Part shown: positions 8,991 through 34,789 of the stretch, in pieces
How the letters are laid out: the number at the start of each line of letters is the position of its first letter
Position numbering within the stretch: position 1 is the first letter of the stretch
NCBI RefSeq assembly: GCF_009914755.1
Contig: NC_060930.1
Length of the DNA: 64,000 nucleotides
Origin: the human T2T-CHM13v2.0 reference genome, Homo sapiens
Reading direction: 5' to 3' (one strand)
Notes under the pieces: generated by a model
Told to the model about the DNA's origin: nothing
What the model saw: only the letters and a program-made list of their open reading frames with translations
Database searches by the model: none
Program-made: the position numbers and the translations under genes

Positions 8991-10818
8991 ACTCACTACG
9001 GTAGGGACCTACACATGCTTTGTCTCATCCTTTTCATCTTTGCACAATATTAGCCTCTACTGTCTTCCAATATGACCAAAGTCTAGTCCATCTAGAGAGA
9101 TCAGATCAAAAGTGAGCCTGAATCATTTACATCTAACAATGTTATCTAGACAGCATGCTTTTATTCTGAATCACCTGAACTTCCAGCTATCTGTGGTTTA
9201 TAAGCTGGCATAAGCTGGCATTTTTCAGTCGAAATACCACAGGGAGAGGTATTTTAGGAGCTGATTTGGTATTCAGTTAATACTGTAGAACGTGCTCTTC
9301 CATTACCTTGAAGCTAATGACTAGCTAAATTAGTTATATGGCCCAAAGCAAAGATAAGATGGTTAGTATGTTTGACCAGTCATTAAAATGTGTGTCTTTC
9401 TGGAAAAATATTCTCTGAAGTGAAATGACACCATGATGTCTGATCAGCAATATAGCTCACCCTTATTTTAAAAGGTCTACTTTGAATGTCTCCCCAGGGT
9501 GATCATATTAAAAAAATCAAAATTTAATATGTCATTAACAGAGGTTAACTTGCTGAAAAATAAGCTGAATTCGTTGGGAATTGCTGCTAAAACATTCTGT
9601 AGCTGGAAAATATCACCCTGTTTCTCTGGAGAACGGTAGCAATAAAAACACACAGAATACACTTTCATCCCAAAATTGGCATACTTTAAATAATCCATGA
9701 TTTTTTTGTTCTAAACTGGCTTAATAGGTCTGAGGCCAATAATATTTTCTATTTCCTCAGGATTTCTTCACTCAGTTTTTTTGTTTGGTAGAGCACTTAG
9801 TATTAACAAGGCACTACAGTAGGCTATAGGGGCATGAAGATGTCAGAAGTTCTATGTATAGTAGACTGCAATGTACTGGAAGCAACAGGAAAGTCAGAGA
9901 GATAAATACTTACATAAATACTAAATAGAGAAAAAACTACCTAATGAGAATTATGGGTGACTGAGCACCAAGGGGTTCCAAGGTCAGTGTGAGCCCTTCT
10001 GGCTGGAGTGGTCAGTGATATATTATTGAAGAAGGTGGCATGGGGCACCAGTAGAATTCCTGAGGCATCCAGATTCAGCACGGCCTCTGGAAGGTGACTG
10101 CCAGGTCAGCTTCACTGTCAGCTGGTGCCTCTCCTGACCCCTCCTCCCTTGTTACCAAGGATGCCAAAACTTTCCCAGCTTTCAGAATGACGACTGTTTG
10201 GTTCTACCTGGCTTATCCTTACTGATCCTGCCTAACTGGCTCTTGAATCATGTTTTCCAGAGGTCAACTGAGTCTAAGAAGACATTAAAAATCCTGAAAT
10301 TGGCCATATCATCCTGCCCCTCCTTGATTTTGGACAGGATGCATTTGGGATCTGGCAGCACTTTTCTGAGGGCATCAACTACCAAGGTTGGAGGGATCTT
10401 TACATCAACCTACACTATACCTACCAGATGCTTTCTTTGACCATCTTGATATCCAGATATGGAGTATTCCCATTTCTTGGTTCCCATGGACTGAAACTTT
10501 ACAGGTAAAGGCCAAAGTTTTGATTCAGCATGAATGAGAAATTCAATGTACTATAAGCTGGAAAGACTTGGCTGAAACTCAGCCCCAGCTAAAGCAACAT
10601 CAGAACTGCATACACAGTGGTAAAGATCAAGTGTCCACTTTGGAAGTATAATCTTTATCTAGTGATCACTTTTCCAACATTTCCATCCAAATTTTGGAAG
10701 CACCTAAATCCAAGCCCTGCAACTATCCCACAATATTATAGTATTATTCACTTATATTTAAGATACTGTACTCCATAGAGCTAGGATGGTAGACATCAAC
10801 ATACAGAGACCTTTAGGG

Positions 10819-11186
<368 letters not shown>

Positions 11187-11299
11187 GGTACTTTCTCAAG
11201 CCAGGGATTGGATTGGGAAAACTGATGGAGTTGGCCAATTCCTATGGAAGTCACATTTCATTCCTGGAAACTTTGAATCTCAGATTTTCTTTTTTAAAG

Positions 11300-11520
11300 A
11301 AACTTCATCTATATATCATTTATATAATATGAAATATGTCAGTTTTAATTGTATACTTTGATGAGTTTTGGCAATATATGCACCACTACAATCAGGATGT
11401 ATTTTATAACCTTTCCATGTTCTGAAAAAGGTTTTCTCACGCCCATCTGCAGTCAACACCATCCTATGCCCACCTAGCCTAAGGAAATCATTGAACTTCT
11501 TTGTGTAACTACAGTCTTGG
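11300..11520 (-). mobile_element. Old L1M 3' fragment
   Basis: ttttaattgtatactttgatgagttttggcaa..caccactacaatcagg..tgcagtcaac is typical antisense L1M 3' text. Confidence 0.65.
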
Positions 11521-11774
11521 TATTGGTAATTTCTCAGAAAGTGTAAACTCATGTTCATTAGCAGACAAATAGAAAAATGAATTACCAAATAATTAAATAA
11601 TGCCTTGAAGGGCTCCAAAGTAAGTCACACCTCAAATTCTGACATACAGGCCCCTAAGGTCTCTTATGAATCCCCAGTGAAACGAATTAGTCAAATGTCA
11701 GGTAAAACCATCAGGCAATACACAAGTTCCTCCACCTTGGCTTCCCCACCTGTTGCTTGCTGGGTCACTTGCTC

Positions 11775-12180
11775 CCCTTTGCTTAGCCAGTTCGACCCAC
11801 AAAATATCTCCTTGGAAGCCTTAGCTCTTCAAGGAGGTGACAACTGCTTCTGCAGAGCTCAGGTCCTTGTGGTCAACAAAAGCGATAGGCTGCGATCCTC
11901 TCCAGGTGAGCTGCAGAGGTTAGAAAGCCCTTCAATCACTGACTCTTGCAGCTTGGAGTATGCAAAAAGTCGCAGCGACAGAGACAGCAGTCTAGACGGT
12001 GAGTCTTCTTTCATACCGTCGAGACTGGCCCATGCAGGACCTGCTTTAGGCCTTTCTGCCTCAGTGTTTGCTTACTGCTCTAGTTCTTTTTGAAAGGCGA
12101 CATGCTTTCTGGCTTGCTTCTTTTGGTAATAATGATGACTTCTTAACATTGGGATTTTAAAAAATCATCTTGGAGCTGAC
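11775..12180 (-). pseudogene. MTHFSD-like: MTHFSD-like linker and RRM core (best-conserved part of the relic)
   Basis: PLQLTWRGSQPIAFVDHKDLSSAEAVVTSLKS*GFQGDILWVELAKQ aligns without gaps to recalled MTHFSD PLRLTWQGPRRRAFLHYPDSAAAQQAVSCLQGLRLGTDTLRVALARQ (18/47 identical by hand count). Upstream KIPMLRS matches KIPILRS, and ARVSD matches ARVSD. Confidence 0.85.
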
Positions 12181-13302
12181 CTACATTTTTATACGTTCTG
12201 ATGTTCCTCATTCCTTCGTACAGATCTGGGCTTCACTTCATATCCTTTCAACCTGCAGACGTGATTTTAGTATTTCATGCAGTACAAGTCTGATGGATTC
12301 TGTCAGCTTTTGTCATCTGAAAATGTTATTTTTGGGGGCCTTTCTTTTGGGGATTTTTTTTTTTTTACTAGACATGGAATTTTAGTATACTTTTTTCTTT
12401 CCATATCATTCCATTGTTTTCTGGCTTCCATTGTTTTTGATGGAGAAGTCAGCCCTCACTCTTATCACCGTGCTCTCCATACAATGAGGTTCCCTCTGGC
12501 AGCTCTTAACATTATCTCCTTATCTTGTGTTTTCAGCATTTTGACTGCAATTTGTTTTAACACATTGTTTTCTTTGTACCGCTACTGCTTAAGATTCACT
12601 GTGCTTTTTGGGTATTTAATTTGATGTTTTCCATCAGTTTTGGAAAAGTTTTCACCATTATCTTTTCAAATATTTCTTCTGGCCCATTCTCTTTCTTTTT
12701 CTTCTTGGATTCCAATTACACAGTGTTTGATATTCACCAGATCTTGGATACTCTGGTCTATGTTTATTACTTTTTTTCACTTTGTGTTTCCTTTCTCTCC
12801 AGCTTTATTAGGTATAATTGATAAATAATAATCATATATTCAACACATACAAAATAATGACTTGATATCTGTATACACTATGTAATAATTACAATCAAAT
12901 TAATCAACACTTCTATCACCACACATAGTTATCTTTGTGTGTGTGTGTGTGTGTGTCTGTGTGGGGAGGACACTTAAGACCTAGTCTTAGCACATTTCAA
13001 GTACACAATACAACATTATTAACTCTAGTCACCATGCTGTACATTAGATCCCCCTGTGTTTCTATTTGAACAGTTTATATTGACCGCTCTTCAAGATCAT
13101 TGATACTTACCTCTTCTGCTCAGTCTTCTGTTAACCTGTTGAATGATTTAGTCAATTCTGATAACATTCTCTTCCAGGAAAGTCTTATTACTTTTAGTAA
13201 TTTTCTTCACTTAGGTTTTTTTTGATCTCAGCTCTCTGATGGGTTAAAAAATCTCTGAAACTATGTAAGCTGTTTGGCTTGTTCTTTTTGTTACGGTAGA
13301 AA
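12181..13302 (-). mobile_element. Old L1M fragment with a nested L1MA-type 3' end (~12790-13055)
   Basis: tcagcttttgtcatctgaaaatg; ttccattgttttctggcttccattgttt; nested agctttattaggtataattga..caccatgctgtacattagatc. Confidence 0.75.
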
Positions 13303-31502: not shown

Positions 31503-31706
31503 CAGGGTGTTCAATCTCAGCACTACTGAAGTTTGAGACCAGGCCATTCTCACGGGCCCGTTGTGGGCACTGCATGGTGTTTGGCACCATCCCTGCCTCT
31601 ACCCGCTAGATGCTAGAAGCATCCCCCTGTTGTGATGACCAAAACTATCTCCAGACATGACCAAATATCCCCTGGGGACAAAATCGCTGGCAACTGAGCA
31701 CCACTG
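31503..31706 (+). mobile_element. MER20 DNA transposon inserted in a MIR
   Basis: cagggtgttcaatctcagcactactga..gaccaaaactatctccagacat..tgagcaccactg; 8-bp TSD (g/c)tctgact. Confidence 0.8.
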
Positions 31707-31712
31707 CTCTGA

Positions 31713-31805
31713 CTCAAAGGTGTCTGCTCCTAACCACCTGCCTCTCAAAGGTGTCTGCTCCTAACCACCTGCCCCTCAAAGGTGTCTGCTCCTAACCACC
31801 TGCCT
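31713..31805. repeat. 31-bp tandem repeat x3
   Basis: ctcaaaggtgtctgctcctaaccacctgcc(t/c) in three near-identical copies. Confidence 0.92.
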
Positions 31806-34789
31806 TTGCTGCCGCCGGCTTCCCCCTGCTTCTTTGAGGCAAAAATCAGGTCGGACTAGCATCAGTGGCAAAGGAACCAGTCAGATCAGCTCATGTGACA
31901 GCTTTGACAGACCAAGCATTTTGGTCACATATTAGCTTTTGAGAATCAGTATGCATAGGCTGGAATGACACTTTCAGTAAATCAACATTCAGGCTATAAC
32001 AAACCTATTAATATTCTGGGGAATTCATTGTGTACCGAGCCAGTCATTCAGATGACTATATGCCTTAGGTCTTTTTATGAAATAAATTAGATTTAATTTG
32101 GTAGGCTAGGCAGAGTAGGCACAGAGTGCCTTGCATTTCCTGGTTATACTAGTGTGTGGTGTGATAAAAAACTGAATAGGCATCTCCATCAAATGATTCC
32201 TGTAATGTCCCCATTGGCTCTTTTGAAATAAAACCTGTGTCCTGTTTCCCTCTTCCTAATTCACCTTGCTCTTGCCTGTGTTCTATAATGGACAATGTGA
32301 ACACTCAGACAGGGCTGATTTTCTAATCAATGGTAACAACTGGAGTTAGAAATGAAAATATTACCATAGTAAACTATATTTATTTTAAAGTCCATAGGCT
32401 AGTTTTCATCCCCTCCCAAACCACTCTAATTTATATAGGAGGGGGTCAAAGTTTAGAGGAATACGAAGATGTTTCTAAAATTTAGATGCAATATGTATAA
32501 GAGAGAAGCTTCTACTTGTGATGAATTAGTTAGAAATCAAAATTTTTTTGGACAGATTCACTTGAGAGAATGAAGAAAATTCAAGTAGAGAGAGGTATCC
32601 TGAGAAAAACAGAATATTTTAGACTGAACTGGGATAATCTGGAGACTTAGAACAATAATATATAAGGCTTTATATATTATATATATATTGCTTTATATTG
32701 AAATTTCATGGAATTATTTTAGCTCTTAAAGTATAGGAAAATCAGTTAAAGATGGAAACACTGATGAATCTAATGAGAATTTTAAACATATAAGTTTATT
32801 TATCTTAAACTGTAAGATTCTATTAGGCTTTAAGACTATAATTTTATGGACTGTGAAAGTTCTAAGGTCCCTTAAGATTATGTAGAAGAGATGTTTACTT
32901 TTTAGCAAAGAAAATATTGTCCAGAAACCCATTTTTTAGAAATAGATAAACTATTTATTTTTAATAAATTAAGCTTATTTTTGGTGAACACAAACTTTTG
33001 AAATTTAGTTTTTTGAAAGACACATGTAATCATGTATTATTTCGTTCTTTCTATATTTCATTACGTTGCCTAGATCAAGCAAACACTGATATACCCAGAT
33101 AAGTGTGGCAAACAGTTATGTGTTTTTTTTTAAACACCTCATTTTACAATTTTGTAATTCACTTTATTAAACAGAAACTTTAGCTCAAGGCTGCACAAAA
33201 TAATGAATTTTCAGTTTCTGCTAAGAGTATGTATATGTTGTTTTTGTTTCTAAATAGTCTATGATATATTTAAAAATGAAATTTGAAGTCAGATTTCATG
33301 CATAGAACCATAAGGATTTTAGGAACGTGTTCTGACAAGCAGTGGTGTGAATACAGCTTCTCACATAAGAGGTGAGTTAACAGAGGCTCGGAGCAGATAA
33401 GTCACTGGTGCTGAGTCACAGGCTGGCAGAGCAAGGATCAGAATGCAGGTCCTCTGCCTTTTAAGCCTGCGTTCTTTTTGGTTCACACTGCCTCTATTAT
33501 TAAATTACTTAATTTATCAGAGCAAAAAGCAAAACCTTAGGGATGCTATTAGCAATTTACTATTTCCAGTTCTTTTGGGAATCTGTTAATTGCCCTTTCA
33601 TAAATGCTGCTCATTATGATTAAGACTTTGATTAAATGTGAAAGTCTAGGATTTATATGTTACAGACATATTTAATATTAATTTAAAGCACCAGAGCAGA
33701 ATGAATTGTGCATTCCAATTTTTTAGCTCTATCAAACACTCTTTAATCAAGGATTTTTCAAGAACTTGCTTTGTGCTAGCAGGACCTGATTTTTCCCCTC
33801 AGGAAGCTCACAGTTTAATTAAGGAGAGCTCATATTAGTAACAATGCACATCAGTGTCTGAGTAAGAGTTTAGGGGAGGTGTAGCTCGTCTTCATGGAGG
33901 TTAGGGGCAAGTGAGTTTAGTGAATAGGTGCCACGGAGTGAGACGGGGAAAGATGGGTGTCCTGGTTGAGGGGCGATGAGGTAAGAATGACTAATGCTTA
34001 TGAACCATTGCCTGATAAACACTGTGCCCAGGACTGTATATGGATCATGTTTAATCCAAAAGCAATTCTGAGTGAAGTCCTATCCCTCAACCCTTTTTAC
34101 AGGAGAAGACATTGAGGCATAGACCCATGAAGTGGGCTTGCTCAGTAACAACTGCTCAGTGAAGGGGCTGGGACTCCCAGCACTTGCCTGGTTCAGATCA
34201 CACTACTGTCTCCTTCCTATACTGCCCCTTCGCCCATCTGTGTGAGCCAAGGCAAGGAAGACAGTCTGGGGTCTGTGGGATGGCAAAGGAATTTTCTAGA
34301 ACTAAGAGTGTGTGTTGGGAAGGTAATGAGATGGGTTTGGAAAGGTTAGTTTGGGTAAAGCTTGAAAAGCCAGAAAAAGGATTTTAGCTCATGTTCTAAG
34401 CCTTCACCATTTTGTAGACCATCTTATTCACATTTTGATGGTCGCTTAGGTAAACTAAGATCTATTTTAGACTTGCAAACAACTACAAGGAGAAATTAGT
34501 TGAATAATATTAAATATTGACTACTGATATGATAATATGTGTATTCATGTAGGAGGTAGGGGTTGTGCCTTCTTTTCCATTCATTCAGAAAAAGCGCCTA
34601 TGGAGGCTCGCGAATAGAGAGGCACCATGCTCATTGCTTTGGGCATACCCTGCCTCCAGCATGAAGTCTGGCACTAGGAATTTCCCATTAATGTTCAGTG
34701 AATGAATGAATGGAATTTCCTGCCCTGCTCCTTGCCTCCCTCCCTTCCCACCTCCCCCTACCTTCCTTCCTCTTTTTCTTCCCTCCCGT

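What the first reader, a model, noticed from the sequence alone, without database searches (positions are those of the whole stretch)
11775..12180. Fossil MTHFSD-type linker and RRM on the minus strand, invisible in the ORF track
Seen: the minus strand reads VSSKMIF/KIPMLRSHHYYQKKQARKHVAFQ ... ARVSD*RAF*PLQLTWRGSQPIAFVDHKDLSSAEAVVTSLKS*GFQGDILWVELAKQ, with stops and frameshifts. Recalled: human MTHFSD has ISLEMMEKIPILRSLRAREQQAGKDVTLQ ... ARVSDLKRAL..PLRLTWQG..AF..LRVALARQ. The RRM block aligns without gaps at about 38% identity. Inference: this is too divergent for a recent processed copy and points to a dead, independently evolved MTHFSD paralogue. I know of no annotated MTHFSD pseudogene, but cannot check this.
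Basis: partly seen in the sequence, partly recalled or inferred. Interest (0 to 1): 0.9.

Follow-up and report, generated by a model that had tools for sequence, protein, structure and literature searches.

The report
Ancient L1-fused MTHFSD last-exon pseudogene
A decayed copy of only the last coding exon of the MTHFSD gene lies in a PRKN intron, joined at its first base to an old L1 fragment; it looks like an ancient dead retro-inserted gene fragment, not a lost working gene.

Summary
The minus strand of window 12180-11776 is a stop- and frameshift-ridden homologue of the last coding exon of MTHFSD (linker plus RRM). Human MTHFSD alone gives only borderline support: genome-wide E is 0.85 and about 8-17. 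Bird and reptile MTHFSD make the match significant: 24 of 48 identical, tblastn E 5.5e-10 in the window, and E 1.5e-4 against the whole genome.

The copy is old. It lies outside crown placentals (98/100) and has decayed by about 0.33 substitutions per site. I found no sign of a paralogue with introns or a working past:
- No other MTHFSD exon turned up in the window or elsewhere on chr6.
- Conserved residues were not spared.
- Homology starts at the first base of the exon (12180), where it abuts L1 ORF1-derived sequence (12181 to about 12815) in the same orientation. Related L1 copies carry GT at that point.

My best reading is an ancient L1-mediated insertion of a chimeric L1-to-MTHFSD RNA, probably spliced, that was dead on arrival. 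It is absent from the RefSeq annotation supplied. Interest is modest.

The parts
12181..12815 (-). Old L1 fragment covering the 3' part of ORF1, 5'-truncated, same orientation as the MTHFSD piece. It ends at base 12181 (...ATGTAG).
   Evidence: 24 other genomic loci match window 12150-12600 at E <= 3e-5. BLAST HSPs to L1 copies cover 12727-12197 at 66-92% identity. The alignment with L032, L018 and L028 runs to the junction. The 60 nt upstream of the junction align to 31 L1 copies (mean score 10.9), while the 60 nt downstream do not (4.35; controls 3.9 and 3.4). The 5' limit near 12815 is read from the translation plus my recollection of L1 ORF1, so it is approximate. Pfam did not recognise the short pieces.
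12179..12182 (-). L1/MTHFSD junction. Base 12180 corresponds to the first base of the MTHFSD last coding exon. The two bases GT (12180-12179) could belong to either partner.
   Evidence: The human last exon starts ...TTTTCAG|ATCAGC and the penultimate exon ends ...TTCAAG|GTGGGT. The window reads ...ATGTAG|GTCAGC. At this point 36 genomic L1 copies read ...ATGTGG|GTAAA (exact 18-mer, reversed control 0). L018 has the GT and L028 does not.
12084..12180 (-). MTHFSD linker, N-terminal conserved block (VSSKMI, one extra base, then KIPMLRS...FQKE).
   Evidence: tblastn of the piece against the human gene gives 12/25, collinear with the RRM hit. Against bat and panda MTHFSD it gives 13/25 and 15/37. 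Frameshift-aware alignments with 4 orthologues start at 12180 or 12158.
11992..12083 (-). Degenerate variable linker, shorter than in any orthologue, with one in-frame stop and at least one frameshift.
   Evidence: It aligns only with many gaps at protein level and nucleotide level. This part is also poorly conserved among orthologues.
11776..11991 (-). RRM fossil. The RNP2-like start (TAVSV...) and ARVSD are followed by a 1-base and a roughly 17-base deletion. Then comes the 48-residue block PLQLTW...VELAKQR with an internal stop.
   Evidence: 18/48 to human and 24/48 to emu MTHFSD at E 5.5e-10. Genome-wide E is 1.5e-4 with ostrich. The deletions are visible in the nucleotide alignment. The parent domain is the solved RRM 2e5j.
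11735..11775 (-). Continuation past the human stop codon. It reads ...GASD..., matching the longer C-terminal tail (QQRASD...) of non-primate placentals.
   Evidence: The rhino alignment extends to 11738-11743. Nucleotide identity to human continues across the human stop, with a 9-base exact run. The tails are compared.
11560..11734 (-). Unassigned spacer. It may be decayed MTHFSD 3'UTR.
   Evidence: No match to the human MTHFSD gene (best E 0.16), no other genomic match, and no match to 6 L1 3' ends.
11284..11559 (-). L1 3' end (end of ORF2 and 3'UTR) with a short A-rich run at 11294-11284, in the same orientation. Its relation to the chimera is unresolved.
   Evidence: Local alignments to 6 L1 3' ends (L065-L070) span window 11559/11519 to 11311-11239. 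The 21-mer taken from L065 has 39 exact genome hits, control 0. Calling it an L1 3' end rests on L065's upstream translation plus my recollection of L1 ORF2.
10817..11196 (-). Alu just downstream. It is a younger insertion and not part of the chimera.
   Evidence: Many 70-88% matches to Alu copies inside unrelated loci. It is masked in RefSeq at 10810-11191. The label Alu is my recognition.

Best explanation
This is an ancient, non-functional, RNA-mediated copy of the last coding exon of MTHFSD and nothing more. It carries the linker, the RRM and a little 3' sequence. It sits in sense orientation directly behind a 5'-truncated piece of L1 ORF1.

The two parts meet at the exon's first base, that is, at its splice-acceptor boundary. 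Related L1 copies have a GT (GTAAA) at the matching point. The simplest single event is therefore this: an L1 transcript used a donor-like site near the end of ORF1 and was spliced, in cis or in trans, to the MTHFSD terminal exon. The chimeric RNA was then reverse-transcribed and inserted by the L1 machinery, with the usual 5' truncation, into what is now a PRKN intron.

The L1 ORF1 frame and the MTHFSD frame are offset by one base at the junction as the sequence stands, and no upstream MTHFSD exons came along. So the copy was dead on arrival and has decayed neutrally since.

The event happened on the lineage leading to placentals, after its split from reptiles and birds and before the placental radiation.

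Shown: homology, extent, the junction position, L1 identity of the flank, position outside crown placentals, and neutral decay.
Inferred: splicing as the joining mechanism, a single event, and the date.
For: Homology and extent.

Only one exon is present. No PF01812 hit lies on chr6. Alignments with four orthologues that include the penultimate exon never extend 5' of 12180.

The junction sits at the exon's first base. L1 homology runs up to it and stops there.

A GT follows the junction point in the L1 family: 36 exact 18-mer copies against 0 for the control.

Age and placement:
- Placentals form a 98/100 clade that excludes the fossil.
- Fossil plus placentals as one clade is not rejected (AU p 0.39).
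- The fossil shares diagnostic residues with both groups: 3 placental, 3 sauropsid and 2 neither of 8 columns at the 80% threshold; 5, 8 and 7 of 20 at 60%.
- It shares the ...ASD tail with non-primate placentals.

Neutral decay: 19 of 37 scorable conserved columns are kept, which gives about 0.33 substitutions per site. About 3 stops are expected and 3-4 are seen.

The flanking L1 is similarly old: 66-76% identity to other copies over HSPs of 100 nt or more.

Precedent: 17 human mRNA/L1 chimeric insertions are described, 6 with gene exons ending precisely at splice donors, and trans-splicing is proposed (Law & Burns, bioRxiv 10.1101/2025.02.02.635956, sections 24 and 32 read). Retrotransposition of spliced L1 RNAs (SpIREs) is documented (PMC5860796, abstract and passages).
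Against: - No target-site duplication could be found by eye. No A-tail directly follows the MTHFSD part.
- About 175 nt (11734-11560) are unassigned, and then an L1 3' end follows. The spliced-RNA model does not explain that 3' end without a second step, such as a template switch, an L1 fragment in the ancestral 3'UTR, or a separate insertion.
- The GT on the L1 side is seen in relatives, not in the source element. L028 lacks it. The 31 copies were selected by a motif that contains it.
- The donor matches the consensus at only about 6 of 9 positions by my count.
- Two junction bases are ambiguous.
- The published chimeras have the opposite layout, with gene 5' exons in front of a near full-length L1.
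- I could not test whether the L1 and MTHFSD parts arrived together, because no other mammalian genomes were available.
- The AU test against a placement with primates is only p 0.09.
- Over all 103 columns the fossil is as close to rhino (45/103) as to ostrich (46/103). The extra similarity to birds and reptiles applies to the RRM block, not to the whole exon.
Confidence: 0.5

Rival explanations
1. Template-switch chimera without splicing. L1 reverse transcriptase started on an L1 RNA (giving the 3' end at 11559-11284), jumped to MTHFSD mRNA, then jumped again to L1 RNA within ORF1. The result is a tripartite L1-MTHFSD-L1 insertion.
For: L1 pieces flank the MTHFSD piece on both sides, in the same orientation and in L1 order: ORF1, then the ORF2 end and 3'UTR. 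The GT microhomology at the junction suits a jump. Double template jumps giving tripartite chimeras are reported for a fungal LINE (PMC2104539, title and start of abstract seen in the listing only). Template switching is the standard model for U6/L1 chimeras (my knowledge).
Against: A jump at a random point would fall within 2 nt of this exon boundary only about 1% of the time (my estimate). I know of no MTHFSD RNA species whose 5' end is the first base of the last exon. No L1 homology is detected in 11734-11560.
Confidence: 0.2
2. An ordinary 5'-truncated processed pseudogene of MTHFSD that happens to lie next to, or inside, an unrelated older L1. Later deletions brought the parts together, and the exon-boundary junction is a coincidence.
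For: 5' truncation is the rule for L1-mediated copies (my knowledge). L1 fragments are everywhere, and the locus has been hit repeatedly (Alu at 10817-11196). No hallmarks of a single event such as a target-site duplication survive.
Against: It needs a truncation point at the exon's first base and also an L1 break at a GT-bearing position. An L1 inserted upstream in the same orientation should present its 3' end to the exon, not the interior of ORF1. No A-tail follows the MTHFSD part.
Confidence: 0.2
3. One reading: the last exon of a once-functional, intron-containing MTHFSD paralogue nested in PRKN that later died.
For: Divergence is high. The fossil lies outside crown placentals. An AG precedes the exon start. 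A weak hit to the penultimate exon lies 19.5 kb upstream on the same strand (E 0.06).
Against: That upstream hit lies in a dispersed repeat: 304 candidates, and 39 other copies scored at E <= 3.8e-13. No other exon was found on chr6. The AG belongs to sequence that aligns with L1 copies. Conserved residues were not spared. The fossil shares placental-type states including the ...ASD tail, so it is not an outgroup to amniote MTHFSD. None of the 152 proteins listed, of 1094 scored across, was named as a second MTHFSD-like gene. Those lists are partial.
Confidence: 0.04
4. Chance resemblance, or a generic RRM from some other gene.
For: Human MTHFSD alone gives a genome-wide E of 0.85. Generic RRM loci score similarly there.
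Against: Genome-wide E is 1.5e-4 with ostrich MTHFSD. A collinear linker match specific to MTHFSD is present. The nucleotide alignment has z = 9.6. Pfam RRM_1 does not see the pieces, so the signal is family-specific rather than generic.
Confidence: 0.01

Closest known systems
mRNA/LINE-1 chimeric insertions with junctions at splice sites (Law & Burns 2025, bioRxiv 10.1101/2025.02.02.635956)
   Same: A host-gene exon and L1 are fused in the same orientation, with the break exactly at the exon's annotated splice boundary and a splice-like site on the L1 side. The product is inserted by L1 machinery (sections 24 and 32 read).
   Different: The layout is mirrored. In that paper, first exons ending at a donor sit 5' of a mostly near full-length L1. 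Here a truncated L1 ORF1 piece sits 5' of a last exon that begins at its acceptor. This copy is far older, lacks recognisable target-site duplications, and is followed by a second L1 piece. I could not see the paper's supplementary table 4, so I cannot say whether this locus or this layout is listed there.
Processed pseudogenes (retrocopies) of cellular mRNAs
   Same: RNA-derived, promoterless, 5'-truncated, dead on arrival and decaying neutrally.
   Different: No exon-exon junction is preserved because only one exon is present. There is no clear poly(A) or target-site duplication. The 5' end is fused to L1 sequence rather than to target DNA.
SpIREs, spliced integrated retrotransposed L1 elements (Larson et al. 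2018, PMC5860796)
   Same: They show that L1 RNAs using internal donor sites are retrotransposed and fixed in the genome (abstract and passages read).
   Different: SpIRE splicing is within L1 (5'UTR, or 5'UTR to ORF1). Here the acceptor would be a host-gene exon and the donor lies near the end of ORF1 of a much older L1 family.
Template-switch chimeric retrogenes (U6/L1 type, tripartite forms)
   Same: Two or three RNAs are joined head-to-tail in one orientation with an L1 3' end at the 3' side (PMC2104539 and PMC4476161, listings only).
   Different: Those junctions usually fall at the ends of the small RNA, not at an internal exon boundary of an mRNA.
MTHFSD, the parent gene (chr16; RRM solved as PDB 2e5j)
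   Same: The linker and RRM are collinear over the whole last coding exon.
   Different: There is no 5-formyltetrahydrofolate cyclo-ligase-like domain. The copy has at least 3 stops and at least 3 frameshifts, a roughly 17-nt deletion in the RRM and a shortened linker.

Membership tests
MTHFSD-derived sequence (last coding exon) | Sequence similarity to MTHFSD proteins that is significant on a genome-wide scale | tested here: met
   Ostrich MTHFSD against the whole T2T genome gives E 1.5e-4, the only locus off chr16 below E 0.1. Frameshift-aware scores are 112-129 against a null maximum of 45-51. With the human protein alone the test is not met (E 0.85).
MTHFSD-derived sequence (last coding exon) | Collinear match of both the MTHFSD-specific linker and the RRM | tested here: met
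   at protein level; at nucleotide level (280/414, z 9.6).
MTHFSD-derived sequence (last coding exon) | RRM_1 (PF00076) profile match | tested here: not met
   0 families for 3 of 3 fossil pieces. The human exon scores E 3.2e-8. The pieces are short (30-40 aa) and decayed, so this says little.
Full MTHFSD gene copy or paralogue | 5-FTHF cyclo-ligase-like domain exons (PF01812) at the locus | tested here: not met
   PF01812 gives 3 genomic hits, all on chr15 or chr16. There are no N-terminal exon hits in the window from 32 orthologues at E <= 1, apart from one inside a repeat.
Full MTHFSD gene copy or paralogue | Intron sequence and acceptor site 5' of the exon | tested here: not met
   The 60 nt 5' of the exon start align to L1 copies, as part of a roughly 600-nt L1 ORF1 fragment.
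Full MTHFSD gene copy or paralogue | Signature of past purifying selection | tested here: not met
   19 of 37 scorable residues are kept in the 39 >=95%-conserved columns, against 24 of 64 scorable in the 66 variable ones. The stop count is as expected under neutrality. The test has low power.
Classical processed pseudogene | Exon-exon junctions without introns | tested here: not met
   Alignments never continue into the penultimate exon. Only one exon is present, so the feature cannot show itself.
Classical processed pseudogene | 3' poly(A) and target-site duplications | tested here: inconclusive
   The only A-rich run (11294-11284) follows the L1 3' piece, not the MTHFSD part. No duplication was seen by eye. 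At this age both are expected to be eroded.
Spliced L1/mRNA chimeric retro-insertion | Junction exactly at the gene exon's annotated splice boundary, same orientation | tested here: met
   Base 12180 corresponds to the first base of the last exon. Both parts are on the minus strand.
Spliced L1/mRNA chimeric retro-insertion | Complementary splice site on the L1 side | tested here: inconclusive
   GT follows the junction point in L018 and in 36 exact-motif copies but not in L028. The source element is unknown.
Spliced L1/mRNA chimeric retro-insertion | Both parts arrive at the same time in the species tree | not testable with these tools

The most novel reading that the evidence does not exclude
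The locus preserves a Mesozoic retro-insertion of an RNA in which an L1 ORF1-end donor was spliced to the terminal exon of a host gene. This would be the mirror image of the exon-to-L1 chimeras catalogued in 2025 and far older than those. It would also be a frozen sample of the stem-mammal MTHFSD C-terminus, showing that the placental RRM and tail changed substantially before the placental radiation.
Probability: 0.4. Interest if true: 0.4.

Novelty: new member of a known kind. Interest (0 to 1): 0.3.

Why it matters
It adds one very old gene-fragment pseudogene, absent from the RefSeq annotation supplied, to the human genome, inside a PRKN intron. It has no evident bearing on PRKN function.

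Its value is as a specimen:
- The exact coincidence of an L1 break with a host exon's acceptor boundary is the signature expected if L1 transcripts occasionally splice into host terminal exons and the product is retrotransposed. That route is the reverse of the exon-to-L1 chimeras described recently.
- As a neutral snapshot taken before the placental radiation, it helps to order changes in the fast-evolving MTHFSD linker and RRM.

It also carries a practical lesson. The human parent protein alone does not detect the copy significantly, while slowly evolving bird and reptile orthologues do.

Tried and rejected
- A DNA search of the genome with the fossil found only itself.
- A chained-block scoring scheme entered the linear regime and did not discriminate.
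- My first impression that homology continued into the penultimate exon at 12190-12295 was wrong. That stretch is L1 ORF1-derived, read in another frame.
- The hit to the penultimate exon at 31657-31713 (E 0.06) is in a dispersed repeat.
- Pfam did not recognise the short L1 or RRM pieces.
- The Atlas search with the 32-aa piece returned only unnamed short clusters and was uninformative.
- My attempt to date the L1 fragment from gapped global identities failed its own control: shuffled sequences gave 68.5% against 67.5% observed. I use only BLAST HSP identities.
- No similarity was found between window 11200-11800 and the human MTHFSD gene or 3'UTR.
- No target-site duplication was seen.
- The three protein searches gave no marsupial, monotreme, amphibian or fish MTHFSD. 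One search gave 1 hit and one search gave 32. One search found 1061, but the 120 listed are all reptiles or birds. The tree therefore has no outgroup, and the date within the mammalian stem is open.
- The paper search for 'MTHFSD' plus 'pseudogene' found 8 papers, none with either term in title or abstract (listing only). This is weak evidence that the copy is undescribed. GENCODE and retrogene tracks could not be consulted, and supplementary tables of the chimera paper were closed.

Full report
OBSERVATION

The minus strand of window 12180-11776 reads as the first-stage reader wrote, across two frames and with stops.

I took the human parent from the same genome. MTHFSD lies at chr16:92,598,486-92,623,551, minus strand. 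Its last coding exon is L002:2314-2781:-, 156 codons. It encodes the whole linker and the RRM in one exon. The penultimate exon ends ...TTCAAG|GT and the last exon begins ...TTTTCAG|ATCAGC. The RRM is the solved domain 2e5j.

IS IT MORE THAN CHANCE?

With the human protein alone it is only borderline:
- blastn to the 26-kb gene gives 60% over 160 nt, E 1.8e-4.
- tblastn of 27 stop-free pieces gives 12/31 at E 1.4e-5 for the RRM piece and a collinear 12/25 at E 0.1 for the linker.
- Against the whole genome the locus ranks 4th of 10 at E 0.85.
- A frameshift-aware score of 78 extrapolates to 8-17 chance hits per genome.
- Pfam RRM_1 sees none of three pieces.

Orthologues settle the question. 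Two word-index searches returned 32 MTHFSD proteins from placentals, birds and tuatara.
- In tblastn against the window, 17 of 32 hit the RRM block at E <= 7.5e-5: 16 sauropsids and one monkey. The best is 24/48 at E 5.5e-10.
- Ostrich MTHFSD against the whole genome finds seven stretches of the chr16 MTHFSD gene, then this locus at E 1.5e-4, then a generic RRM locus at E 0.18.
- Frameshift-aware scores with ostrich, chicken and tuatara are 112-129 against null maxima of 45-51 in 126 one-kb bins. The rough Gumbel extrapolation is about 1e-6 per genome. Rhino gives 93 and about 0.02.
- The nucleotide alignment to the human exon has 280/414 identical aligned bases, z = 9.6 against shuffles.

EXTENT AND STATE

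Alignments with four orthologues run from 12180 (or 12158) to 11776, and with rhino on to about 11740. That is the whole last coding exon plus the longer C-terminal tail (...ASD...) that non-primate placentals have.

The damage includes:
- one extra base after VSSKMI;
- a shortened, gappy middle linker with a stop;
- a 1-base and a roughly 17-base deletion inside the RRM;
- an internal stop in the 48-residue block.

WHAT LIES AROUND IT

No other MTHFSD exon is present. PF01812 hits only chr15 and chr16. The orthologue searches find nothing else credible. The one candidate, 31657-31713 at E 0.06, sits in a dispersed repeat with 304 genomic candidates.

I first thought the homology crossed into the penultimate exon at 12190-12295. 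It does not. That stretch belongs to an old L1 fragment:
- Window 12150-12600 matches 24 other loci.
- HSPs to L1 copies cover 12727-12197 at 66-92% identity.
- Three copies (L032, L018, L028) align up to the junction.
- In 31 L1 copies anchored on a shared 18-mer (36 exact genomic hits, reversed control 0), the window's 60 nt upstream of 12181 align (mean score 10.9). The 60 nt downstream align no better than controls (4.35 against 3.9 and 3.4).

So L1 ORF1-derived sequence ends, and MTHFSD begins, at the first base of the exon. Two bases (GT) could belong to either side. In L018 and the 36 motif copies the L1 sequence continues GTAAA at that point, which is a donor-like site. L028 lacks the GT.

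Downstream, the order is:
- about 175 unassigned bases;
- an L1 3' end at about 11559-11284 in the same orientation, with a short A-rich run;
- an Alu.

AGE AND PLACEMENT

The third protein search returned 1061 hits, but the 120 listed are all reptiles or birds. I therefore have no marsupial, monotreme or non-amniote sequence and no outgroup.

On 103 columns (11 placentals, 11 sauropsids, and the fossil read with X at breaks):
- Placentals form a clade excluding the fossil at 98/100, on a stem of 0.37 changes per column. The fossil has a 1.48 end branch and joins near the unresolved sauropsid base.
- Holding the fossil with placentals costs 0.69 lnL (AU p 0.39). Holding it with the two primates costs 8.6 lnL (p 0.09).
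- Diagnostic columns split 3 placental, 3 sauropsid and 2 neither at the 80% threshold, and 5, 8 and 7 at 60%.
- Overall identity is 46/103 to ostrich, 45/103 to rhino and 39/101 to human.

The fossil is thus intermediate. That is what a copy taken from the stem lineage of placentals should look like. The extra similarity to birds holds for the RRM block, not for the whole exon.

In the 39 columns that are >=95% conserved in all 22 orthologues, the fossil keeps 19 of the 37 that can be scored. In a neutral simulation on the human exon this corresponds to about 0.33 substitutions per site (binomial range about 0.19-0.55). The simulation predicts about 3 stops, close to what is seen.

From my own knowledge of repeat divergence levels, that is older than eutherian-specific repeats and in the range of MIR and L2. 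I therefore place the event well before the placental radiation but cannot narrow it further.

MECHANISM

Only the terminal exon is present. It is fused in sense to the interior of L1 ORF1 exactly at the exon's acceptor boundary, with a GT on the L1 side in relatives.

The most economical account is a retro-insertion of a chimeric RNA in which an L1 transcript was spliced to the MTHFSD last exon, 5'-truncated as usual. As the sequence stands the two frames are offset by one base, so no fusion protein is expected.

There is precedent for splice-site junctions between host exons and L1 in fixed human insertions, in the opposite layout. Law & Burns 2025 describe 17 chimeras, 6 ending precisely at donors, and propose trans-splicing (sections 24 and 32 read). 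Retrotransposition of spliced L1 RNA is also documented (PMC5860796, abstract and passages).

The 3' L1 piece is not explained by splicing alone. It would need a template switch from an L1 RNA, an L1 fragment in the ancestral 3'UTR, or an independent insertion.

The rivals are a double template switch, a coincidental juxtaposition with a plain truncated retrocopy, a dead paralogue, and chance. They are weighed in their own sections.

COMPARISON AND NOVELTY

This is a new member of known kinds: processed pseudogenes and L1/mRNA chimeras. It has an unusual mirrored layout and great age. It is absent from the RefSeq annotation supplied. A paper search for 'MTHFSD' with 'pseudogene' listed 8 papers, none about such a copy (listing only). 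GENCODE, retrogene tracks and the preprint's supplementary table could not be checked.

VERDICT

- The 'independently evolved paralogue' reading is not supported.
- An ancient L1-fused, dead-on-arrival copy of the MTHFSD last exon is the best explanation. That it is MTHFSD-derived is near certain. The chimeric spliced-RNA mechanism has confidence about 0.5.
- Interest is 0.3.

Noticed in passing
L002:2250-2320 (human MTHFSD, chr16) compared with P0002-P0015: Human, titi monkey and colugo MTHFSD end ...QQRDK*. Bats, carnivores and ungulates continue ...QQRASDL... for about 20-25 more residues. In human the shifted frame just past the stop still reads a similar tail. This suggests a frameshift that shortened the protein before primates and colugos split.
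   Followed up: partly
P0001 (Plecturocebus cupreus, 189 aa): The first 33 residues of this database protein resemble the translation of the human last intron just upstream of the last exon. It is probably a gene-model artefact that starts inside the intron.
   Followed up: partly
window 31720-31815, minus strand: Three tandem copies of a unit of about 33 nt (...caggtggttaggagcagacacctttgag...) sit directly 5' of a dispersed repeat at 31554-31719 that has 304 genomic candidates.
   Followed up: no
window 10860-10960, minus strand: The Alu downstream of the locus appears to carry a tandem duplication of about 50 nt of its 3' part (gcaccattgcac...gggcaacaagagc.aaactc occurs twice), followed by an (AAAAC)n-like tail.
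   Followed up: no
window 12930-12965: A (CA)n microsatellite lies about 100 nt upstream (minus-strand sense) of the 5' end of the L1 ORF1 fragment.
   Followed up: no
The monkey protein P0001 has RA. I could not tell whether this is a recall slip or a real difference between references.
   Followed up: no
G000 chr2:106714412-106714645 and chr2:108382562-108382789: Two chr2 loci with the same pattern of stops (1 TGA, 1 TAG) give weak RRM matches to the human MTHFSD exon (E 0.07 and 5.7). They look like duplicated copies of some other RRM pseudogene.
   Followed up: no
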